A DNA stretch of 20,000 nucleotides from an uncultured virus (IMG/VR IMGVR_UViG_3300009183_004450) (IMGVR_UViG_3300009183_004450), one strand, 5' to 3'. Shown: positions 457 through 13,105, counted from the first letter of the stretch. Notes: generated by a model from the sequence alone, not told the origin. Translations and numbers: made by a program.

Positions 457-462
457 TATTTA
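457..462 (-). promoter_or_regulatory. T4-type late promoter core (CA-TAAATA-C)
   Basis: TAAATA overlaps the TAA stop of the upstream gene and is followed by an SD and ATG 434. The same motif recurs in nearly every intergenic gap. Confidence 0.75.
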
Positions 463-954
463 TGTGTTTTTGTTCTTTTGGAGAATCTGCTCTAGTAGAG
501 CATTACGATCTAGTACGATTCCTTGTCCTTCAACTGCACGACTTCCGGGATCATCTTTACTCATTTGATGATCTAGTCTGGCTTTTTGTAGCTGCAGGCT
601 GACCATGCGTAGCTTCTTGTCCATTTTAGCAGTTTTAGCAGTAATGGCATGCCCCAGTAATGTACCAGCAGTTTGGAATACTACTCCACCAAATCTGGGA
701 TCCATGTTCATCCCAAGATCCATTAGATCTTCGAATTTTTCTTTGGCTAGATTTGCAAGCTCGTCCATTTCTTCGTCGCTGGCTTCTAGGTCGCGCACTG
801 TGGGCAATGCTAGATCAATTTTATCTATAGCATCATCCACTTGGGCTATTATGTCTTGCTGGTCTTGTATGGTTTGAAATGCTTCGCTGGTTTCTGCTGA
901 GGCATCTGCAGGAACTTCAGGGAGATCAAATAGTTCGGCTAGTTTCTTGGTCAT
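460..954 (-). CDS. Putative terminase small subunit (T4 gp16-like)
   Basis: 164 aa, acidic and helical. The central DLGMNMDPRFGGVVFQTAGTLLGHAITAK segment, a coiled coil and the C-terminal IVLDRNALLEQI resemble the layout of T4-like TerS. Morphogenesis context supports it. Confidence 0.6.
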   Translation of the reverse strand: MTKKLAELFDLPEVPADASAETSEAFQTIQDQQDIIAQVDDAIDKIDLALPTVRDLEASDEEMDELANLAKEKFEDLMDLGMNMDPRFGGVVFQTAGTLLGHAITAKTAKMDKKLRMVSLQLQKARLDHQMSKDDPGSRAVEGQGIVLDRNALLEQILQKNKNT

Positions 955-959
955 GCTCG

Positions 960-965
960 TATTTA
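960..965 (-). promoter_or_regulatory. Late promoter core (GG-TAAATA-C), 5 nt before ATG 954
   Basis: Minus strand reads GGTAAATACGAGCATG. Overlaps the TAA stop of the gp4-like gene. No SD between motif and ATG. Confidence 0.7.
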
Positions 966-1400
966 CCGAGCTCGACCTTGATGGAAGATATCATTTTCTG
1001 TTAGGACTCGAAAACGCAATCCATTTTGATTACACCAGGCTTGTGCTGCTTGCCACTTGTACATGTTCAATACTGCTGCTGCTTGGTCACGAGGGCTTTT
1101 ACCTGCTGCTTCTAGTGTAGTTTGTTTTGAAGGTTTAATTTCAACCAGTTCACCAAACTTTTCACCGTTTTTGTTTACATACATAATCATAAAATCTGGT
1201 ACATAAATGGTATTTTTATTTGTAAAAGGATTCCGATAAGGAATGTGTATTGCTTCGCTAGCCCATTGTAGTACTGCAGGATTTTCATCACAGAAGCGCA
1301 TAAAACTATGTTCCCAACTGCTACGAAACTGAGGAACTTTTTTACCCACATACTTGTCGGCATTGACAATTTGATAAAAACCGTTAGCGTATTTGCCCAT
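963..1400 (-). CDS. Head completion nuclease (T4 gp4-like; TnsA-N-like PD-(D/E)xK fold)
   Basis: Motifs KYVG..FRSSWE..FMRFCDENPAVLQWASE, YVPDF, LVEIKP..QT, KWQAAQAWC and FRVLTE are characteristic of gp4-like proteins. Confidence 0.9.
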   Translation of the reverse strand: MGKYANGFYQIVNADKYVGKKVPQFRSSWEHSFMRFCDENPAVLQWASEAIHIPYRNPFTNKNTIYVPDFMIMYVNKNGEKFGELVEIKPSKQTTLEAAGKSPRDQAAAVLNMYKWQAAQAWCNQNGLRFRVLTENDIFHQGRAR

Positions 1401-1798
1401 TATGATATTATAGTACGTTGAATATATTTGTTCAATTGAGGAGTGTTGTTAATGCCAAGGTAACTAGTTCCCACACGTTCAAAATTCAAAAACATCGCTG
1501 TGTATGCATCCAGTTCACCAGCACTTAATTTTTGAAACTCTTTTAAAGTAATCATCGGATCTAGTCCTTGTTTAAGACTAGTGTAGATTACCGCGCTGGC
1601 CAATGCTTTGGCACTTTCTTTATTAGATGTTATCTGTTCAAAATACGCAACTATTGCACTATCTACATTGCTACTTACGTTTATTGGTATATCAAAATAG
1701 TTATTAAAATATTTTTCCACATCACGTGTTGTTAACGGATTGGTATTAATCTCACTTAAATTGGTAGGATAGATCGCTCTTGTAATTAATTTAGCCAT
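1400..1798 (-). CDS. Hypothetical phage protein (132 aa)
   Basis: Coupled to the gp4-like gene by a TAATG overlap at 1400 and overlaps the upstream ORF by 8 nt. Plausible helical protein with no recognised motif. Confidence 0.8.
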   Translation of the reverse strand: MAKLITRAIYPTNLSEINTNPLTTRDVEKYFNNYFDIPINVSSNVDSAIVAYFEQITSNKESAKALASAVIYTSLKQGLDPMITLKEFQKLSAGELDAYTAMFLNFERVGTSYLGINNTPQLNKYIQRTIIS

Positions 1799-7400: not shown

Positions 7401-7700
7401 AAGTGCGCTATAAGCAGCCATTAAACCGTATTCGTTGCGCTCATCGCCGTGCAACGGTGTACCAGCCGAGCTTTGTTTAAAGCTTGGATAACCCATTGCA
7501 GTAATTAATTCTCTTTGGCTACTATAAGCCAGTAGTTTGCCTGCTCTTGAAGCAGTAGTGTCAGCAGCTACAGTGCCTGCTGGGCTTAGTTTATCTTGTC
7601 CAGTAGCAAGAATAACTAGTGGTACAGTTCCGACCGCGCCCGGTACGTATTGACTTTCGTCAGTGACTGTAATTTGTAAACCTGGGGATACTAGTGCCAT
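4437..7700 (-). CDS. Contractile tail sheath protein (T4 gp18-like) with large inserted domains
   Basis: N-terminus MALVSPGLQITVTDES. C-terminal sheath motifs WFAPAGTRRG, RDTLYENRINPI, VVWGQKT, ALDRINVARL, FLFEPND and VVCDETNNTP..I..NEL. SD AAGGA at 7708-7712. Confidence 0.97.
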   Translation of the reverse strand: MALVSPGLQITVTDESQYVPGAVGTVPLVILATGQDKLSPAGTVAADTTASRAGKLLAYSSQRELITAMGYPSFKQSSAGTPLHGDERNEYGLMAAYSALGNVNRLYAIRADINLDELVGTSVRPTGAVANNTHWMDLTESAWGINEWDAVTGTFSLKSPILVTSTDDSTISSSIEVPDSDVGQIGSYAVAFNTGSNALLFYKNRSNTWVRLGTTAWQISWPTIKGTTTTAIPVASPQWTIVINGTTVSLGNTATTKTVAQVAALINAATIDGVTSAAVNGKLEIYASSLAESNGSTADGKITIANGVGTPLATLGVVAGTYANPLLTYGTFAEVPSWRSTDTVPRPSGSIFAKLGATGSGSDVVIKRYNSSTESFATLAAPFYNRAEDALYGLDPAGGGNGIAAGTVWVAYDPLRTDTGGFKPFRRRVAGQTIVTGTALSSTALTATDVIVIGVTSIGSATITEYSVTLTGSSPASFVSDVLAKNIPELNISVGTGNAITFTHIYGGDIYLTDSTGTPTVEAGFSTSTTGTIAYGTTLALTNWEALTYTFSANEPYQAPVDGTLWYYSDPATVDIMVNEIGGWRGYRNTSYYDGSATKTDARGYDLGSTDPEGVIVSASEPEYQSDGVTALVGGDLWLDTGDLENYPALYRYDGSAWGLIDNTDQVSQNGILFADARWDTDGTTDIITGSLPAVTDLIASDYIDVDAPDYRLYPRGMLLFNTRRSGYNVKQYVSNKFNANAYPDLPTSPSAGAPSSLPTIKNTWQTASGLKDNGSPYMGRQAQRRMITAAMQAAIIANTEVREEQYQFNIICAPGYPELIDEMVSLNNDRANTAFIIGDTPMRLAPNAIDIANWSNNTNGDGLATADPYLGVYYPSGQTSDLSGNTITVPASHMALRTMIYNDNVAYQWFAPAGTRRGLVDNASSIGFIDAATGEYNFNSIREGLRDTLYENRINPITNLPGVGLVVWGQKTRNGTASALDRINVARLVNYIRTILASVGNGFLFEPNDKITRDQIKNIISGAINDLIAKRGIYDYLVVCDETNNTPTRIARNELYVDIAIEPMKDVEFIYIPIRLKNPGDIAAGI

Positions 7701-7728
7701 GTTTTTATCCTTTTATAAACATTTCTAG

Positions 7729-7736
7729 TATTTATA
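7729..7736 (-). promoter_or_regulatory. T4 late promoter TATAAATA for sheath
   Basis: Perfect T4 late consensus 28 nt upstream of the sheath ATG. Confidence 0.85.
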
Positions 7737-7767
7737 AAAGGGTTTACATTTTTAGTGGTTACAGGTG

Positions 7768-7779
7768 CCTTTCGAAAGG
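7768..7779. repeat. Perfect 12-bp palindrome CCTTTCGAAAGG
   Basis: Read directly. Lies between two divergent TATAAATA promoters. Confidence 0.8.
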
Positions 7780-7785
7780 TTTCGT

Positions 7786-7793
7786 TATAAATA
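7786..7793 (+). promoter_or_regulatory. T4 late promoter TATAAATA, 5 nt before ATG 7799
   Basis: Plus strand reads TATAAATAATACTATG. Confidence 0.8.
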
Positions 7794-7798
7794 ATACT

Positions 7799-8143
7799 AT
7801 GACTAGGCCACTTTGCACCGCATGTAACGGTAATCCTGCTGCTATAAACTATCACTCAGGCGACAAAATACGATATAGGCGCATGTGCGCCGGCTGTATT
7901 CGTAAAGGAAAGAAAGTAAGGACAATACCCGGATGGGTAAAAGCAGGGTATAAGAAAAAAACAATCTGCGAGCGGTGTAACTTCAAAGGAAAACTAATCA
8001 ATCAGCTATTTGTATTTCATATTGACGGAAACTTAAAAAATAACGATTGGCAAAATCTTAGATCTGTGTGTGCAAACTGCAGAATAGAATTAAACACCGG
8101 AAAAACTACTTGGCGTGAAAGTCCGCTGGTAGCAGATTTTTAA
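7799..8143 (+). CDS. Zinc-finger / HNH-like protein (114 aa; start corrected from 7694)
   Basis: Four CxxC motifs (CTAC, CAGC, CERC, CANC) and HIDGNLKNNDWQNLRSVCANC. The promoter position supports the MTRPLC start. Confidence 0.85.
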   Translation: MTRPLCTACNGNPAAINYHSGDKIRYRRMCAGCIRKGKKVRTIPGWVKAGYKKKTICERCNFKGKLINQLFVFHIDGNLKNNDWQNLRSVCANCRIELNTGKTTWRESPLVADF

Positions 8144-8765
8144 TTTGAGTATACAGTTGTTGTACTGTTCCATTATTGTCTACAGTGTAGTTAAATGTCT
8201 GCCCAATCCAGGCCCACTCTGATTGATGTATATTGGGATACTTTTGAGGCATAAGTTGGTGTGCATCTTCTAATAGCCATTGTCTATCAGTTGGAGTAGT
8301 GTTTTCTGTTAATGCACAATCATACCATTCGGGAAGTTCTCCTCGCTGCACCCAAACACATACGCCACCTGCCTTGCGTATTGCTGCAATTTCGTTAGGA
8401 AAGCGCACATCGCTAATAACAATATCATCTACTGTTTTACGCAGTCTATTTTCCATGCTAGCAATCCAAATATCATCATGGAATCCTTGCCTGCACACTT
8501 CTGTTCCCCATAGTTGCAGCATATACCTTGGAGTAAGACGTGGCATATCTAATCGTTTGGCCCACCATGGATCCACTTGTTCGCGCCATTCACGGGCTTC
8601 GGGTGTAAGTCCTTCTAGCAGTTCACGATCCCAACCAAACACTTGTGCTACTGCATCTTTGAGTGTGCCAGCAAAACTGTCACGTCTAAATCCATGCTGT
8701 GCTACAAGATAATTGGCTGCGGTGTCTTTGCCGCTTCCAATAAATCCGGTGATTCCTATAATCAT
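8106..8765 (-). CDS. Deoxynucleoside monophosphate kinase (T4 gp1-like; start corrected from 8816)
   Basis: MIIGITGFIGSGKDT P-loop, SFAGTLKD, TPRYMLQLWGTEVCR, DIW, VISDVRFPNE and HQSE. Confidence 0.95.
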   Translation of the reverse strand: MIIGITGFIGSGKDTAANYLVAQHGFRRDSFAGTLKDAVAQVFGWDRELLEGLTPEAREWREQVDPWWAKRLDMPRLTPRYMLQLWGTEVCRQGFHDDIWIASMENRLRKTVDDIVISDVRFPNEIAAIRKAGGVCVWVQRGELPEWYDCALTENTTPTDRQWLLEDAHQLMPQKYPNIHQSEWAWIGQTFNYTVDNNGTVQQLYTQIKNLLPADFHAK

Positions 8766-8792
8766 AAAAAATGCCCCTTGTAGGAGCATTTT
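8766..8792 (-). terminator. Terminator-like hairpin that also sequesters the dNMP kinase SD
   Basis: Minus strand reads AAAATGCTCCT-ACA-AGGGGCATTTT-TT-ATG: an 11-bp stem with one G.U pair and six U ending immediately before the ATG. Confidence 0.75.
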
Positions 8793-8816
8793 AATATAGT
8801 TGTGTGTGAAAGTCAA
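8788..8816 (-). promoter_or_regulatory. Sigma70-type (early) promoter for dNMP kinase
   Basis: TTGACT (8816-8811), 17-nt spacer, TAAAAT (8793-8788). Confidence 0.75.
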
Positions 8817-9190
8817 ACACCGTACTTGTTTGTTTTCTTTTTGGCAACCGGACTTGCAGTATTTGTGCTTTTTAACTCTTGGCTTCGCATGTCGCCTTTG
8901 TTAACATCTTCGTAGTCGGCACCCACTGCTTGATAGGCTTTTTTGAGCATTTCTTGATCAAGCTGACTGTAAGGTGCGGTTACTTTCCATTTACCCACCC
9001 AGGATTCTTTATCTGTGTCAGGAACTGTTTTGCCATCTGTACTAGCAACTGCTAGTCCCAAACGATACAATGTGTAATCACTGTTCCGGTGATCACCATC
9101 AGTAAACTTGTTTAAGCCACGAGTTGGCTGCTGTTGGCGCTTTGTTATTTTGCCCGCTGATGCTTCTGTAATAACTTCGTTAATTTTCAT
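8813..9190 (-). CDS. Hypothetical protein (125 aa), probable head-internal protein; start corrected from 9205
   Basis: TAATG overlap with the gp13 stop. Begins MKINEVITE and has a basic C-terminus. Confidence 0.8.
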   Translation of the reverse strand: MKINEVITEASAGKITKRQQQPTRGLNKFTDGDHRNSDYTLYRLGLAVASTDGKTVPDTDKESWVGKWKVTAPYSQLDQEMLKKAYQAVGADYEDVNKGDMRSQELKSTNTASPVAKKKTNKYGV

Positions 9191-10110
9191 TATCCAATTA
9201 CCCAAGTTAATGGCAGCGATCCGTCAACATAATTTTTTAGCTGCTGTTCTAGATCTTTCATTTCTGCAATGGATTCTGCTTTTAAACTAGCACCATTTAA
9301 CTGTGTTCCGCCCTGCGGCCCTGCAATACTGGCAAACTTTTCTCTAGCTTCTCCAAGAATGCTTTTGGCGAATGCATAAGCGTAATCTTGTAACCAAGGA
9401 TATGCCTGATAGTCATTGAACAACATACTGTCAGGTTTATAATTGTAGATATGCAACATGCAGTCTTCCATTTGACTTTCTTGCATGTTAACGCCAGCAA
9501 AAGGTATCTTACGTATTAGTGTAAGCTTTTTTGTGGTTTTGTTAAAGTGGAAGTTTAAGTATCCGCCAAACATTTTCATGCTCAATTTTTGATAATCTAC
9601 AAATAGTTCGTAGCTTAACAAGCCACCAACTCGTCCTGCCACTAACATGTAAGTGTTTAAGTAGCCGGAACTGAACGGTTCAAATTGGCTAGCAGTTGTA
9701 CCAGTTACTGATCCAATGCCCCGACGATATGCAGCACGTACTTCCATGACAGTGTTAGGCAGTATGTATTCTTGCGTTTCAGGTTTGAGTTTTAGGAATG
9801 CGTAACTTTCTTCTTGGCTGTTGCTGGCCAATTGTCTGTAGCGATTTAGTGCCTGGTCAATCGAAAGTTCGTAATGTTCTTTGTCAAGTTCCACATCAAC
9901 AATGCCATCTGCTAAACGTAATCTGATATAATCAATTATGTCTTTGCGATGAGAATTATCCGTTTGTAGAGTTGGTGCAGTGGTGTCGCCCAATTCCTCA
10001 GTAGGATCGTATGCAATGTGACCCGAACCCGTGCCTGTTGCAGGGTTATATAAACTGTCTGTTATTAGTACGCCGTTAGCGTAAAATGAAGTAGTATCTG
10101 CTGTAGCCAT
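9190..10110 (-). CDS. Neck protein / head-tail adaptor (T4 gp13-like)
   Basis: IIDYIRLRL..GIVDVELD..H...IDQAL at the N-terminus and WLQDYAYAFAKSILGEAREKF..IAGPQGGTQLNG..LK.E at the C-terminus. Confidence 0.9.
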   Translation of the reverse strand: MATADTTSFYANGVLITDSLYNPATGTGSGHIAYDPTEELGDTTAPTLQTDNSHRKDIIDYIRLRLADGIVDVELDKEHYELSIDQALNRYRQLASNSQEESYAFLKLKPETQEYILPNTVMEVRAAYRRGIGSVTGTTASQFEPFSSGYLNTYMLVAGRVGGLLSYELFVDYQKLSMKMFGGYLNFHFNKTTKKLTLIRKIPFAGVNMQESQMEDCMLHIYNYKPDSMLFNDYQAYPWLQDYAYAFAKSILGEAREKFASIAGPQGGTQLNGASLKAESIAEMKDLEQQLKNYVDGSLPLTWVIG

Positions 10111-10113
10111 TTA

Positions 10114-10144
10114 GGTGTCCTAGTAATGTATTTACCAGGACACC
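10114..10144 (-). promoter_or_regulatory. SD-sequestering hairpin containing a late promoter (TAAATA 10129-10134)
   Basis: Minus strand reads GGTGTCCTGGTAA-ATACA-TTACTAGGACACC-TAA-ATG: a 13-bp stem with one G.U pair. The SD AGGA (10118-10121) is in the 3' arm. Confidence 0.88.
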
Positions 10145-10150
10145 GTGGAC

Positions 10151-11341
10151 TTAGTTGATTCGGAGCAGGATCATATCAGCGTTAATACGCCCGTTCCCGA
10201 TGGTTTCTGTTGCTTTAATCTCCTCCAAGAACTTGCGTAGCTGTATTTTAGTGGCTTTTGCAAATTCTTTGAGTTTTTCGTCGGGCTTGCGTAATGTTTT
10301 GCCCACACTCTTTGCTAGGTCAAAGCCTGTTAAACTAGTGCCTTTGATGCCTAACGGTCCAGTTAAACTGTCAGCAATGTATTTGTAGAGCTTGCGTGTC
10401 TTGGTGTTATAGCACCAGACTTCCTGTGCGCCAATAATGTCCACAGGATTAATGCTTACTAACTTCAGCGTCTTTTCTTCACGCATGTATTTGAGCTTGC
10501 CAACAAGTTTTTCTTTGTTAGGAGCACGTTTTACACGTAATTTTTTAGTTGCTTTCTTGACTCCGCGATACTGTTCTAGTGCATCCAGTACGGCATCCAA
10601 AAACGCATAGTGACGTTTATAGTCTGCCGCTTTGAAATGTTTATAAGATTCAACATAGTCTTCAAACAGTTTGCCTTGTGCTGCGCCTAGTTCTGCTTTA
10701 CGAGCACTAAACAGTTCTACAAATTTGTTAATCTGACTTTGCGGTACTGTATTAGCAGTCAAGTAATCAAATGCCTTTGGATCAACGGTTCCGCCCGATA
10801 CAACTTCGTCATACAAGCCTTCAAAGTGTGCCAAGTGCTCACTTGTTTTTTCGTTAAGTCGATCCTGGATAGTGGGTGCTCGTACTGTGGCTTTTTCAGC
10901 TGCTGGCATTGGTGCGCCAGTTGAACTTTCTACTACATCTCCGTCGTCTTGTAGCAATGCTATTTCAATACGCTCTCGAAGATAACCAAGTTCTTTTTCA
11001 CGTAGCGGCATGCCTTGACGATTTGCCATAAGCAAGCCGTATGCTGTCATTGGGACTGCGCGATCTGGGCTGCGGATAAATGCACTAACTTGCTGTTTTG
11101 TATATTTGTTATCCTGCATCCATTTAACCAGATGCTTTTTTAGATCTTTTTGGCTGTAGTAATAATTGTAATACGAAAAACTTTTACGCAAGAAGTGATC
11201 AAATTCGTCCTGGCTCATTGCTGTTGCACGTTCTGTATCCCAGACTGGTTCACTCCCGGTGTACTTCTCATCAGAGAACATGGGATCTCGAGATTTTTTG
11301 GCTACTTTTTTGGGTGCCTTTACACTTTGCTGTAATGCCAT
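10151..11341 (-). CDS. Hypothetical phage protein (396 aa), predicted early, with basic C-terminal domain
   Basis: Long ORF with SD AAGGAG at 11348-11353 and its own consensus sigma70 promoter. C-terminal motifs SINPVDIIGA, YNTKTRKL, KTLRKP and NGRIN look like a conserved family, but I cannot assign a function. Confidence 0.9.
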   Translation of the reverse strand: MALQQSVKAPKKVAKKSRDPMFSDEKYTGSEPVWDTERATAMSQDEFDHFLRKSFSYYNYYYSQKDLKKHLVKWMQDNKYTKQQVSAFIRSPDRAVPMTAYGLLMANRQGMPLREKELGYLRERIEIALLQDDGDVVESSTGAPMPAAEKATVRAPTIQDRLNEKTSEHLAHFEGLYDEVVSGGTVDPKAFDYLTANTVPQSQINKFVELFSARKAELGAAQGKLFEDYVESYKHFKAADYKRHYAFLDAVLDALEQYRGVKKATKKLRVKRAPNKEKLVGKLKYMREEKTLKLVSINPVDIIGAQEVWCYNTKTRKLYKYIADSLTGPLGIKGTSLTGFDLAKSVGKTLRKPDEKLKEFAKATKIQLRKFLEEIKATETIGNGRINADMILLRIN

Positions 11342-11370
11342 TTTTCGCTCCTTGTTACTTAGAATATAAC

Positions 11371-11399
11371 ATTATACTACTCTTCGGGTTTTGTGTCAA
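11371..11399 (-). promoter_or_regulatory. Perfect-consensus sigma70 promoter
   Basis: TTGACA (11399-11394), 17-nt spacer, TATAAT (11376-11371). Confidence 0.92.
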
Positions 11400-11658
11400 G
11401 TAGTGTTGCAAACACGAGCCATTGTTGCAACTCTGCTAACTCTTGTTTACATTTAGCTAACTGTAGATTGTGTTGTATATAATTGTTCGTTCTACGGGCA
11501 TCAATTTCTGCTTTACTTAGCTCTGTTACACTATTATAAAGATTGTCGTGCATTTTGAGCAACTGGCGACGATGTTGTATATTGTACAACTCCCGTACAT
11601 TACGGCGTAGTTGCTGATCTAGCAACGCCCAGTCGTCTAAAGAGTTAAATGCATTCAT
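11377..11658 (-). CDS. Small helical hypothetical protein (93 aa; start corrected from 11763), predicted early
   Basis: MNAFNSLDDWALLDQQLRR... ATG 11658 lies 7 nt after a TATAAT box. The sequence is coiled-coil-like. Confidence 0.8.
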   Translation of the reverse strand: MNAFNSLDDWALLDQQLRRNVRELYNIQHRRQLLKMHDNLYNSVTELSKAEIDARRTNNYIQHNLQLAKCKQELAELQQWLVFATLLDTKPEE

Positions 11659-11665
11659 AACCATA

Positions 11666-11694
11666 ATTATACTATTTTTGGTATTTACTGTCAA
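11666..11694 (-). promoter_or_regulatory. Perfect-consensus sigma70 promoter with TAAATA nested in its spacer
   Basis: TTGACA (11694-11689), 17-nt spacer GTAAATACCAAAAATAG, TATAAT (11671-11666). Confidence 0.9.
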
Positions 11695-11696
11695 AC

Positions 11697-11702
11697 TAAA
11701 TA
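11697..11702 (+). promoter_or_regulatory. Late promoter core (AC-TAAATA-C) for the gp14-gp15-NUDIX unit
   Basis: Plus strand reads CTAAATACTAGATACGAGGATTTTATTGTG, with SD GAGGA at 11711-11715. Confidence 0.78.
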
Positions 11703-11722
11703 CTAGATACGAGGATTTTATT

Positions 11723-13105
11723 GTGCCAAGATTATCACTTTGGAAAGACGGAAAACACAGCAACGATTATAAGTTTATGGATCGTCGCATGAGCGAGATG
11801 TTTACTGTTGGCGGTACTGGAATTTATATCCACAAATATCTTGGCGTAAATGAACAAAATTTAGTTAAGACTACCAGTGCTGCTCAAGGTAACACTAGCC
11901 CGACATTGACATTTACAAGCACATCCGACATTGATTTAGGAATGTATGTGGTTGGTACCGGAATATCAACAGGTGCTACTGTTACCGCAAAAACTGCTAC
12001 CACTGTTACACTAAGTGCTAACACTATTTCAGCTAGATCGTCAGGTTCTACAATTAAGTTTTATACTGAAGCAAGTAAACCAAGTTACATTAACGAAAGT
12101 GCTTCAAACATCCAAGACCTATTTTTCTTAGAAAATAGAGATAGAAAATATGATACCAGTATATACTCATTACGTGGAGTTTATCAAGTACAGGACGTAA
12201 CATTTGATTTGAGTCAGTTTGGTATGTTCTTGCAAACTGGTACGCTGTTTATGGTATTTCATATCAACGATATGATAGAGACTGTTGGGCGCAAGCTAAT
12301 GTCTGGTGATGTAATTGAACTTGCGCATCTCAAAGATTACAATCCATTGGACGACACTTTACCTGTTGCACTGAAACGTTATTATGTAATCAGTGATTGT
12401 CAAAATGCAGCCGAAGGATATAGTGCTACATGGTGGCCACACTTGTGGCGTTGTAAAATCAACCCATTGACTGATAGCCAAGAATACAAAGATATACTGA
12501 ATCAAATTACTTTAGATAACGAACTTGACCCCACAGGAGGTAATGTAACACTGGGCTCAGTAAGTAGTATCATTAACAAGTATCAAACGATCAATGATGC
12601 TATAATTAAAGAAGCCGAACTTAATGTTCCGTACTCGGGATATGATACTTCTCACATGTATATTAAACCGTTGGAGCCAACAGGTGCTGTAGGTGATCCA
12701 ATTGGAACTACTGCCGACTCGGGCAACATATCAGCTGATTCTGGTAATATTAATTCTTCGTCGGGCGTAGTAACTCCTGACGCTACAGTTGCAGGATATT
12801 TAACCGGAGACGGATTAACTCCAAATGGATTGCCTGTCACTGTTGGTATTGCTTTCCCAACTGGCCCAGCAGTAGGAGATTACGCATTAAGAACCGATTA
12901 CTTGCCAAATAGATTATTTAGATACGACGGACGTCGTTGGGTCAAGATTGAAGATAATGTAAGAACTAACTTGACTCCAGGTTCAACCAATCAAACACAA
13001 CGTAGTAGCTTTGTTAATAATACAGAAACGTATTCAAACAACTCCGGTAATGTCACAGTTAGACAAAGTTTAAGCAAGGCATTAAAGCCTCAGGCGGATA
13101 ATTAA
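11723..13105 (+). CDS. Neck protein / head closure (T4 gp14-like), extended; GTG start corrected from 11678
   Basis: MPRLSLW..., IQDLFFLENRDRKYD, FDLSQFGMFL..TLFMVFH, GRKLMSGDVIEL and HLWRCK. Directly upstream of the gp15-like gene, with an SD 7 nt before the GTG. Confidence 0.8.
   Translation: MPRLSLWKDGKHSNDYKFMDRRMSEMFTVGGTGIYIHKYLGVNEQNLVKTTSAAQGNTSPTLTFTSTSDIDLGMYVVGTGISTGATVTAKTATTVTLSANTISARSSGSTIKFYTEASKPSYINESASNIQDLFFLENRDRKYDTSIYSLRGVYQVQDVTFDLSQFGMFLQTGTLFMVFHINDMIETVGRKLMSGDVIELAHLKDYNPLDDTLPVALKRYYVISDCQNAAEGYSATWWPHLWRCKINPLTDSQEYKDILNQITLDNELDPTGGNVTLGSVSSIINKYQTINDAIIKEAELNVPYSGYDTSHMYIKPLEPTGAVGDPIGTTADSGNISADSGNINSSSGVVTPDATVAGYLTGDGLTPNGLPVTVGIAFPTGPAVGDYALRTDYLPNRLFRYDGRRWVKIEDNVRTNLTPGSTNQTQRSSFVNNTETYSNNSGNVTVRQSLSKALKPQADN

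What the first reader, a model, noticed from the sequence alone, without database searches (positions are those of the whole stretch)
8763..11702. Mirror-image promoter-in-hairpin insulators at both early/late boundaries
Seen: the minus strand runs sigma70 genes (93 aa, 396 aa), then late genes (gp13, 125 aa), then a sigma70 gene (dNMP kinase). At each class switch a ~30-nt element has the same design: a hairpin whose 3' arm holds the downstream SD and whose 5' arm or loop overlaps that gene's own promoter. In both, the single mismatch is a G.U pair only on the transcribed strand, which argues for selection at RNA level. Known: T4 uses the early-to-late form for e, soc and I-TevI. Inference: this phage uses the design in both directions, so only transcripts from the correctly timed promoter are translatable and early and late genes can be interleaved on one strand. 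I do not know a described example of the reciprocal pair.
Basis: partly seen in the sequence, partly recalled or inferred. Interest (0 to 1): 0.8.

Follow-up and report, generated by a model that had tools for sequence, protein, structure and literature searches.

The report
Promoters nested in RNA hairpins
In this uncultivated freshwater giant phage, two neighbouring genes each have their promoter placed inside an RNA hairpin that hides the gene's ribosome site (and, in one case, stops transcription) on RNA arriving from upstream, a two-way version of a trick known from phage T4 late genes.

Summary
Both elements exist as described. Element 1 (10144..10114, minus strand) is a 12-13 bp hairpin. 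A T4-type late-promoter motif spans its 5' arm and loop, and the neck-protein (gp13-like) Shine-Dalgarno lies in its 3' arm. In 34 distinct relatives 92% of cells pair, 4 of 12 pairs show compensatory changes, and another clade buries the same ribosome site with an unrelated fold. Element 2 (8792..8768 plus a T6 run) is the window's top terminator-like site. The -10 box of the dNMP-kinase sigma70-type promoter overlaps its 5' arm, so the predicted start lies in the loop. It is highly conserved but shows little covariation.

Among 43 promoter-proximal ribosome sites in 157 kb, these two loci are the extreme outliers for masking in read-through RNA. Relatives without the upstream co-oriented gene lack both hairpins, and others use leaderless starts instead.

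Element 2 is first of all a terminator that its own promoter bypasses. The design is local, not genome-wide. No transcript data exist.

By folding, T4 and an RB69-like phage show a late-to-middle mask at the same gene junction. Earlier notes of this scan report early-promoter masks in T4-like phages. Verdict: new variant of a known kind.

The parts
11666..11694 (-). sigma70 consensus promoter (12/12, 17-bp spacer) of the 93-aa ORF. The ATG follows the -10 box by 7 nt, a leaderless-type layout.
   Evidence: The same layout (5-8 nt, no SD) is seen in 25 of 25 distinct relatives (counted by eye).
11377..11658 (-). 93-aa ORF with no family match
11371..11399 (-). sigma70 consensus promoter (12/12) of the 396-aa ORF
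   Evidence: It is conserved in 43 of 44 distinct relatives by eye.
10151..11341 (-). 396-aa ORF (phrog_11903, function unknown). Its transcript would read into element 1.
   Evidence: A homologue sits next to the neck gene in PA5oct. No terminator-like site is listed on the minus strand between 11371 and 10144.
10114..10144 (-). Element 1: RNA hairpin with 12-nt arms, a 7-nt loop and one G.U pair
   Evidence: covariation
10128..10134 (-). TAAATAC late-promoter-type motif spanning the 5' arm and loop. The predicted start is about 10124-10123, in the first bases of the 3' arm.
   Evidence: TAAATA is invariant in A1. Start position is inferred from the T4 rule, not measured.
10118..10121 (-). 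Shine-Dalgarno AGGA of the gp13-like gene, inside the 3' arm
   Evidence: The cost to open the site is 18.2 kcal/mol in long RNA and 2.7 in short RNA.
9190..10110 (-). gp13-like head-tail adaptor (phrog_211)
8813..9190 (-). 125-aa ORF with its start overlapping the gp13 stop and no promoter of its own. Its stop codon lies inside the -35 box of the next promoter.
8788..8816 (-). sigma70-type promoter of dNMP kinase (TTGACT, 17 bp, TAAAAT; 10/12). The predicted start is about 8781, the first loop base.
   Evidence: TTGAC and the T, A and final T of the -10 box are invariant in 30 distinct relatives while the spacer varies.
8766..8792 (-). Element 2: hairpin (8792..8768, 11 pairs, one U.G) running into a run of six T, which gives intrinsic-terminator anatomy. 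The run ends at the dNMP kinase ATG.
8774..8777 (-). Shine-Dalgarno GGGG of dNMP kinase, inside the 3' arm
   Evidence: The cost to open the site is 13.0 kcal/mol in long RNA and 2.3 in short RNA.
8106..8765 (-). dNMP kinase (phrog_139, Pfam DNMK)
7709..7741 (-). Third, weaker AU-rich hairpin of the same design before the tail sheath gene. TATAAATAC lies in the 5' arm and loop, and AAGG of the SD in the 3' arm.
   Evidence: -10.1 kcal/mol sense, -7.8 antisense. The long-minus-short cost is 3.1 in the window and 6.4 in G002.

Best explanation
The locus carries two RNA switches that depend on where a transcript starts. They let genes of different promoter classes sit head to tail on one strand.

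(1) RNA started at the sigma70 promoter of the 396-aa gene runs through 10144..10114, because there is no terminator in between. It folds the 12-13 bp hairpin, which buries the gp13 Shine-Dalgarno, so gp13 and the coupled 125-aa gene are not translated from it. RNA started at the TAAATAC late-type promoter begins inside the hairpin, about 13 nt before the ATG. It lacks the 5' arm and is translatable. This is the T4 e/soc/49/I-TevI mechanism.

(2) RNA of the gp13-125aa operon meets 8792..8766, a hairpin followed by U6. Most of it terminates there, and any read-through keeps the dNMP-kinase Shine-Dalgarno paired. The dNMP-kinase promoter has its -10 box on the 5' arm, so its RNA starts in the loop. 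That RNA cannot form the hairpin, is neither terminated nor masked, and carries a 16-nt leader.

Shown by the calls: the structures, their conservation, covariation for element 1, motif positions and thermodynamic contrasts. Inferred: the transcription start sites, the early and late timing, actual termination and actual translational repression.
For: Structure
- Both hairpins are far more stable than shuffles (z = -4.6 each, 0 of 200 shuffles as good).
- Both are 3.4-3.9 kcal/mol more stable in the gene sense than in the antisense.

Element 1 in relatives
- In 34 distinct relatives, 92.4% of 408 cells pair, against 34-53% when the partner column is slid.
- 4 of 12 pairs change on both sides (for example GC in 21 and AU in 12), and 0 of 500 shuffles reach the covariation score.
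- Clade L066-L081 has a different long-range fold. It pairs the 3' coding end of the 396-aa gene with the gp13 SD and ATG, and 3 pairs are compensatory.
- The long-minus-short cost to open the gp13 ribosome site is at least 8 kcal/mol in 34 of 45 distinct sequences with the co-oriented 396-aa gene upstream. It reaches that in 0 of 2 rearranged lineages, which score 5.9 and 4.4.

Element 2 in relatives
- 30 of 44 distinct sequences carry the hairpin with the T-run (6 T in 29, 5 T in 1).
- 21 of the 29 computed reach at least 8 kcal/mol.
- L003 and L005 carry a hairpin of different sequence at the same place.
- The 2 rearranged lineages have an ordinary leader, scoring 3.2 and -1.4.

Specificity
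- Of 43 promoter-proximal ribosome sites in the window plus a 137-kb relative, the top four values are these two loci (15.5 and 18.4; 10.8 and 10.3). The next value is 6.4.

Promoter classes
- TAAATA motifs sit 5-40 nt before the sheath, tube, adaptor and virion-protein genes.
- An ATAAATA late motif and a gp55-like sigma are reported for the distant relatives CBB and GAP32 (PMC5259590, passages read).
- A gp55-like ORF was found in 2 of 4 related records (E = 5e-7 and 2e-6).

The T4 mechanism was taken from PMC3014915, section 29, passages read.
Against: - No transcript ends, timing or translation data exist for this phage or its close relatives.
- Element 2 is almost invariant, so covariation is not significant (88 of 500 shuffles reach the score; 1 of 11 pairs changes on both sides). 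Its conservation could come from the -10 box, the SD and the U-run alone.
- 11 of 45 gp13 sequences with the same gene order score below 8 kcal/mol.
- Sigma70-like matches at 9/12 or better are no commoner than chance in the window (69 found against 59 expected). Only the strongest and conserved ones carry weight.
- One virion-type gene (head closure, start at 1400) is preceded by a 10/12 sigma70-like site. Promoter type therefore need not equal timing.
- No obvious harm from early gp13 or late dNMP kinase is known.
- In the distant cultured relative PA5oct the neck-gene site shows only a weak effect (6.1 against 3.7).
Confidence: 0.55

Rival explanations
1. Element 2 is only an ordinary intrinsic terminator of the gp13-125aa operon. 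It is squeezed into a 47-nt gap together with the next promoter. The overlap with the SD and the -10 box is a by-product of compaction and has no translational role.
For: It is the top terminator-like site of the window. The T-run is kept in 30 of 30 hairpin-bearing relatives (6 T in 29, 5 in 1). Other operons of the window and of G002 end in hairpin plus T-run sites placed just before the next promoter. The stop codon of the 125-aa gene lies inside the -35 box, so there is no room upstream. Covariation is weak.
Against: A terminator placed after a promoter only works if the start lies inside it, so the nesting itself is functional. The SD is always in the 3' arm, in 30 of 30. Relatives without the hairpin use leaderless-type starts, which also tie translation to the local promoter (11 of 44).
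Confidence: 0.25
2. The hairpins serve the upstream messages as 3'-end protectors or RNase processing sites. Their overlap with the next ribosome site is secondary.
For: Both lie directly after stop codons. In clade L066-L081 an inner hairpin encloses only the stop codon and late motif.
Against: In that clade an outer helix still pairs the SD and ATG. Three unrelated folds in three clades all include the gp13 ribosome site. Both hairpins vanish where no co-oriented upstream gene exists, although those genes still need 3' ends elsewhere.
Confidence: 0.1
3. The motifs are not the active promoters, or the starts lie upstream of the 5' arms. The hairpins then act on the genes' own transcripts as attenuators or constitutive translational dampers.
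For: No start site has been mapped. The dNMP kinase promoter matches only 10/12.
Against: TAAATA is invariant in 47 of 47 distinct gp13 upstream sequences. The TTGAC and TAnnnT positions are invariant while the spacer drifts. The same motifs precede many genes at fixed distances.
Confidence: 0.07
4. The inverted repeats are chance.
For: The sequence is AT-rich, and SD-like and promoter-like words are short.
Against: z = -4.6 for both. There is conservation and covariation across up to 80 loci. Both loci are outliers among 43 sites.
Confidence: 0.02

Closest known systems
T4 genes e (lysozyme), soc, 49 and I-TevI; also mobE of Aeromonas phage Aeh1: ribosome-site hairpins with a nested late promoter (PMC3014915, section 29, passages read)
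   Same: Element 1 has the same layout. Early read-through RNA forms a hairpin over the SD. A TATAAATA-type late motif sits in the 5' arm and loop, so late RNA lacks the 5' arm.
   Different: The phage group is different (about 40% protein identity to Rak2/GAP32/PA5oct-type jumbo phages). The gene is different: a neck protein rather than a lysis, decoration, nuclease or homing gene. No experiment exists for it. The motif core here is TAAATAC.
Junction of T4 gene 3 (late tail protein) and gene 1 (dNMP kinase), with middle promoter PM1 as annotated in record X03016.1
   Same: It is the same gene junction, a late structural gene followed by dNMP kinase on one strand. Read-through RNA folds a 13-bp stem over the start codon with the -10 box inside (z = -4.2; sense -21.4 against antisense -11.5 kcal/mol; long-minus-short 9.0). 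JN02 (Mosigvirus) has the same design with different letters (z = -5.5).
   Different: The T4 5' arm lies in the promoter spacer and pairs with the ATG and first codons, not mainly the SD. There is no U-run, so there is no terminator. The stem is not among the features annotated in X03016.1. I found no paper describing it. In six other T4-type genera sampled, gp3 and gp1 abut or overlap and no such element can exist.
Intrinsic (Rho-independent) terminators
   Same: Element 2 has a stem with G-C pairs at its base, a short loop, an immediate run of six U and a matching upstream A-run.
   Different: A promoter is nested in it, so the terminator is invisible to the gene it precedes. Its 3' arm and U-run double as SD and spacer. 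Elsewhere in the window and in G002 the order is terminator first, then promoter.
Leaderless mRNAs such as lambda cI from PRM (PMC10491246, abstract seen in the listing)
   Same: Relatives of this phage replace element 2 by a -10 box followed 6 nt later by the ATG with no SD. This also restricts translation to RNA from the local promoter.
   Different: It needs no RNA structure. In this window it applies to the 93-aa gene and others, not to dNMP kinase.
Lambda sib retroregulation of int (recalled, not checked in any call)
   Same: An RNA structure forms only in transcripts of one origin and decides expression.
   Different: It acts at the 3' end through RNase III and decay, not at the ribosome site or by a nested promoter.

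Membership tests
T4-type ribosome-site hairpin with nested late promoter | A stable hairpin includes the SD and/or the start codon of the regulated gene. | tested here: met
   Element 1 has AGGA in the 3' arm. The hairpin folds at -19.7 kcal/mol. Opening the site costs 18.2 kcal/mol in long RNA.
T4-type ribosome-site hairpin with nested late promoter | A late promoter of the TATAAATA type is placed so that late RNA starts inside the hairpin and lacks the 5' arm. | tested here: inconclusive
   The motif TAAATAC lies at 10134..10128 in the 5' arm and loop. It is invariant in relatives and recurs before virion genes. The start at about 10124 is inferred from the T4 spacing and has not been mapped.
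T4-type ribosome-site hairpin with nested late promoter | Earlier-class transcription reads through from upstream. | tested here: inconclusive
   A 12/12 sigma70 promoter lies at 11399..11371, and no terminator-like site is listed between it and the hairpin. Timing has not been measured.
T4-type ribosome-site hairpin with nested late promoter | Translation is repressed on long transcripts and allowed on short ones. | not testable with these tools
   Only a thermodynamic contrast is available: 18.2 against 2.7 kcal/mol.
T4-type ribosome-site hairpin with nested late promoter | The structure is kept in relatives by compensatory change. | tested here: met
   4 of 12 pairs change on both sides and 0 of 500 shuffles reach the score. 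One search shows a different fold in another clade.
Intrinsic terminator (element 2) | A stem-loop with G-C pairs is followed at once by a U-run of 5 or more. | tested here: met
   One search gives 11 pairs, of which 4 are G-C, and a 3-nt loop. Six T follow in 29 of 30 distinct relatives and five in 1.
Intrinsic terminator (element 2) | RNA 3' ends fall in the U-run. | not testable with these tools
   No RNA data are available.
sigma70-type promoter (dNMP kinase) | -35 and -10 hexamers lie 17 bp apart, with the key positions conserved. | tested here: met
   The match is 10/12. TTGAC and the T, A and last T of the -10 box are invariant in 30 distinct relatives while the spacer varies. Activity has not been measured.
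gp55-dependent late promoter | The phage encodes a gp55-type sigma factor. | tested here: inconclusive
   A gp55-like ORF was found in 2 of 4 related records (G003 and G004; E = 5e-7 and 2e-6). All four records are fragments (6-37% complete). None was found in G001 or G002. The window's own genome is not held.

The most novel reading that the evidence does not exclude
T4-superfamily phages, from T4 itself to this freshwater jumbo lineage, may use a general grammar that ties translation to the local promoter in both temporal directions. The grammar would have three forms: promoters nested in ribosome-site hairpins, promoters nested in terminators, and leaderless starts. The late-to-early direction at the dNMP kinase junction would be an undescribed and recurrent case. 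The promoter-inside-terminator form would be a new kind of one-way insulator.
Probability: 0.35. Interest if true: 0.65.

Novelty: new variant of a known kind. Interest (0 to 1): 0.5.

Why it matters
If the mechanism holds, it explains how a phage can place an early nucleotide-metabolism gene and another sigma70-driven gene in the middle of a late virion module on one strand without cross-expression. It extends the classic T4 lysozyme trick to a structural gene of a distant jumbo-phage lineage and to the opposite temporal direction.

The promoter-inside-terminator layout is a compact, about 50-nt one-way insulator: it stops incoming transcription and starts new transcription that is blind to the stop. 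That may interest people who design genetic circuits.

The hypothesis can be tested directly in T4, because the gene 3 to gene 1 junction shows a comparable fold.

Tried and rejected
- A near-identity DNA search of the phage collection found nothing. The window's own assembly is not held, so no scan of its whole genome was possible. I used the 137-kb contig of a relative instead.
- Public sequencing runs: no RNA holder is listed, so I laid no reads.
- An Rfam scan of 7500..12000 at E up to 1 gave 0 matches.
- Notes on this genome from the scan: none.
- The PA5oct supplement (one xlsx file) holds promoter and mass-spectrometry tables, but I found no per-gene timing for the homologues with my terms. 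Its pptx and pdf supplements could not be read and may bear on timing.
- Three literature searches for a promoter nested in a terminator, or for a described hairpin at T4 gene 1, found nothing relevant. Most older T4 papers are not in the library, so this is weak evidence of absence.
- A search of IMG/VR for T4 gp1 relatives gave only 3 near-identical loci, useless for covariation.
- My crude class-boundary script on G002 flagged 4 sigma70-to-late and 4 late-to-sigma70 transitions. Several rest on weak motif matches, so I draw no rate from it.
- In one search the start codon of clade L066-L081 was misplaced. Those 10 rows were discarded and recomputed.
- In one search the script picked a wrong promoter for L005, which has the same architecture as L003. 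That row has no energy value.

Full report
**What the window is**

The finding lies in a virion-gene module of an uncultivated phage. Proteins match PHROG families for tail sheath, tail tube, head-tail adaptor Ad2 (gp13-like), head closure and virion structural proteins, plus dNMP kinase and an HNH nuclease. The gp13-like protein is only about 40% identical to those of Rak2, GAP32, CBB, PA5oct and Atu_ph07-type jumbo phages. No near-identical phage record exists in the collection. The window's own assembly is not held; a 22-kb IMG/VR record is 99% identical over the region. A related 137-kb contig is estimated at 37% completeness, which fits a genome of several hundred kb.

**Observation**

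On the minus strand the order is:
- a 93-aa ORF,
- a 396-aa ORF,
- gp13-like (306 aa),
- a 125-aa ORF whose ATG overlaps the gp13 stop,
- dNMP kinase.

The consensus scan gives 12/12 sigma70 promoters before the 93-aa and 396-aa ORFs and a 10/12 one before dNMP kinase. Weaker matches are no commoner than in shuffles (69 against 59 expected), so only these strong and conserved sites are used here.

Each 71-nt context has z = -4.6, and 0 of 200 shuffles fold as well. The bare hairpins are -19.7 and -11.9 kcal/mol in the gene sense, against -16.3 and -8.0 in the antisense, because the one odd pair is G.U only in the sense RNA.

In element 1, TAAATAC spans the 5' arm and loop, and AGGA is in the 3' arm. 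In element 2, the -10 box TAAAAT overlaps the 5' arm and GGGG is in the 3' arm.

**Promoter classes**

TAAATAC occurs 12 times in the window against 6.2 expected (6 of 200 shuffles reach 12). TAAATA-type motifs sit 5-40 nt before the starts of the sheath, tube, tube-like, adaptor and two virion-structural genes.

The CBB paper (PMC5259590, passages read) reports an ATAAATA motif before structural genes of CBB and GAP32, a gp55-like sigma, and likens the motif to the T4 late promoter. With T4 gp55 as query I found a matching 301-aa ORF in 2 of 4 related records (E = 5e-7 and 2e-6). There was none in the two records nearest the window, and all four are fragments.

PA5oct depends on the host polymerase and has TTGAC/TATAATA promoters (PMC7318152, passages read). 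The labels "early" for sigma70-type and "late" for TAAATA-type are therefore reasonable, but they remain inference.

**Comparative evidence, element 1**

A scan of IMG/VR found 269 relatives of the gp13-like protein. The best 80 loci were kept (72-99% identity). TAAATA is present in all 47 distinct upstream sequences.

For the alignment I left out the 3 rearranged loci and the 16 loci of clade L066-L081, which left 34 distinct rows. On these rows:
- 92.4% of 408 cells form standard pairs, against 34-53% when partners are slid.
- 4 of 12 pairs change on both sides (for example GC in 21 and AU in 12).
- 0 of 500 shuffles reach the covariation score.

The shuffle control ignores relatedness, so this is supportive rather than a probability.

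Sub-clades carry visibly different stems (GGTGTCC/GGACACC, GGTATCC/GGATACC, ATTAGTA/TACTAAT). Clade L066-L081 lacks this hairpin. Instead it has a long-range fold in which the 3' coding end of the 396-aa gene pairs with the gp13 ATG and first codon, and a TCCT-type word pairs with the SD, with the late motif enclosed. RNAalifold finds 16 pairs, 3 of them compensatory.

**Comparative evidence, element 2**

Of 44 distinct dNMP kinase upstream sequences:
- 30 carry the hairpin with the T-run (six T in 29, five in 1),
- 11 have no hairpin and no SD, but a -10 box followed 6 nt later by the ATG (leaderless-type),
- 2 rearranged lineages have an ordinary leader with a strong SD,
- 1 follows an inserted gene.

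The hairpin sequence is nearly invariant, so covariation is not significant (95.5% of 330 cells paired; 1 of 11 pairs with a double change; 88 of 500 shuffles reach the score). L003 and L005 carry a hairpin of different letters at the same place, but MAFFT aligns it out of register, so it counts against the structure. The -35 TTGAC and the T, A and last T of the -10 box are invariant while the spacer drifts.

**Energetic contrast and specificity**

For each promoter-proximal ribosome site I computed the free energy needed to open positions -15 to +4. I did this in a long RNA (90 nt upstream of the predicted start) and in a short RNA (from the predicted start). The start was taken as 6 nt after TAAATA or 7 nt after the -10 box.

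Among 43 such sites in the window plus the 137-kb relative, the top four differences are gp13 (15.5 and 18.4 kcal/mol) and dNMP kinase (10.8 and 10.3). The next is the sheath gene (6.4), and the rest are 6.3 or less.

Across relatives:
- gp13 reaches at least 8 kcal/mol in 29 of 35 plus 5 of 10 distinct sequences that keep the co-oriented 396-aa gene upstream.
- gp13 scores 5.9 and 4.4 in the 2 rearranged lineages.
- dNMP kinase reaches at least 8 in 21 of 29 computed hairpin-bearing sequences, and scores 3.2 and -1.4 in the rearranged ones.

The gene and start calls on the relative are my own simple ORF-based calls. The starts are predictions.

**Mechanism**

The most economical reading has two parts.

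Element 1 works like the T4 e/soc/49/I-TevI hairpins reviewed in PMC3014915 (section 29, passages read). Read-through RNA from the sigma70 promoter hides the gp13 SD. RNA from the nested late promoter starts at about 10124-10123, lacks the 5' arm and is translated.

Element 2 terminates the gp13-125aa transcript at the U-run and masks the SD in whatever reads through. The dNMP kinase promoter, whose -10 box lies on the 5' arm, starts RNA at about 8781 in the loop, and that RNA can form neither structure.

The stop codon of the 125-aa gene lies inside the -35 box, which explains why the terminator sits after the promoter rather than before it. Elsewhere in the window and in G002 the usual order is terminator, then promoter.

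A third, weaker AU-rich hairpin of the element 1 type precedes the sheath gene, the next sigma70-to-late transition (7741..7709; -10.1 kcal/mol). By eye it is present in roughly two thirds of 36 distinct relatives. I did not count this formally.

**Limits**

- There are no RNA or protein data.
- The design is local. The other 39 sites examined show nothing comparable.
- My crude class-boundary listing is too noisy to give a rate.
- One virion-type gene (head closure, start 1400) has a 10/12 sigma70-like site 6 nt before its ATG. Promoter type may therefore not map cleanly onto timing.
- PA5oct keeps the 396-aa homologue next to its neck gene, with a sigma70-like site and an ATAAATA-type motif, but only a weak AU stem (6.1 against 3.7 kcal/mol).

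**Comparison with T4 and with earlier notes of this scan**

T4 has the same junction: late gene 3 followed on the same strand by gene 1, dNMP kinase. Record X03016.1 annotates middle promoter PM1 in the 49-nt gap and no stem-loop there.

Folding the read-through RNA gives a 13-bp stem that buries the start codon, with the -10 box inside (z = -4.2; sense -21.4 against antisense -11.5 kcal/mol). The long-minus-short cost is 9.0 kcal/mol. JN02, a Mosigvirus, has the same layout with different letters that match its different second codon (z = -5.5).

In six other T4-type genera sampled (KPV15, LHE83, VR26, CIP9, Apostate, Aes508), gp3 and gp1 abut or overlap, so no such element is possible.

Earlier notes of this scan describe early promoters nested in SD-masking hairpins at regB, denV, alc and other genes of T4-like phages. 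Those are unchecked AI notes on other genomes. My T4 gene 1 check is a separate site and agrees in kind.

I found no paper describing a late-to-early or late-to-middle mask, or a promoter nested in a terminator. The library lacks most older T4 literature.

**Verdict**

Element 1 is a new member of the T4-type class in a distant lineage, with good comparative support.
- Element 2 is best read as a terminator with a nested promoter that also masks the SD. This is a new variant, though its structure is supported by conservation more than by covariation.
- The reciprocal pairing is real at this locus but is not a genome-wide rule, and a related reciprocal mask seems to exist in T4 itself.

Noticed in passing
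window 11658..11666 (minus strand); relatives: The 93-aa gene has no SD, and its ATG lies 5-8 nt after the -10 box in 25 of 25 distinct relatives (counted by eye). This is a conserved leaderless-type start from a consensus sigma70 promoter. In clade L038-L065 the 396-aa gene shows the same layout.
   Followed up: partly
window about 7785..7801 (plus strand), ORF to 8143: The HNH nuclease ORF on the opposite strand starts at an ATG 5 nt after a full TATAAATA motif. This is a leaderless-type late start for a homing-endonuclease-like gene lying between dNMP kinase and the sheath gene.
   Followed up: no
window 971..955 (minus strand), gene 954..460: A small 5-bp hairpin has TAAATA in its loop, and the ATG follows directly after the 3' arm (-6.8 kcal/mol). 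The same arrangement is seen in G002. Several other genes in G002 show TAAATA plus 5-7 nt plus ATG.
   Followed up: no
window 1400..1435 (minus strand): The head-closure gene (phrog_218) is preceded by a 10/12 sigma70-like site whose -10 box ends 6 nt before the ATG. This is odd for a virion gene, or it may be a chance match.
   Followed up: no
window 11666..11703, both strands: The sigma70 promoter of the 93-aa gene (minus strand) and a CTAAATAC late-type motif for the plus-strand virion protein gene overlap back to back. The pairing is conserved in relatives.
   Followed up: no
window about 7756..7770 (minus strand): A palindrome of the CCTTTCGAAAGG type, about 60 nt before the sheath gene, is kept with small changes in all 36 distinct relatives, whatever the neighbouring genes are. 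Its function is unknown.
   Followed up: no
loci L034, L035, L037: In these relatives dNMP kinase is inverted and lies upstream of gp13, and the 396-aa gene lies downstream on the other strand. Both hairpins are absent there.
   Followed up: partly
L093 2376..2424 (T4) and L098 248..300 (JN02): The gene 3 to gene 1 junction of T4 and of an RB69-like phage folds, in read-through RNA, into a stem that buries the dNMP kinase start codon, with the PM1 -10 box inside. It is not among the features of record X03016.1.
   Followed up: partly
L091 (G003) and L092 (G004): A 301-aa ORF matches residues 23-115 of T4 gp55 at 32-37% identity. It is longer than T4 gp55, which is 185 aa.
   Followed up: no
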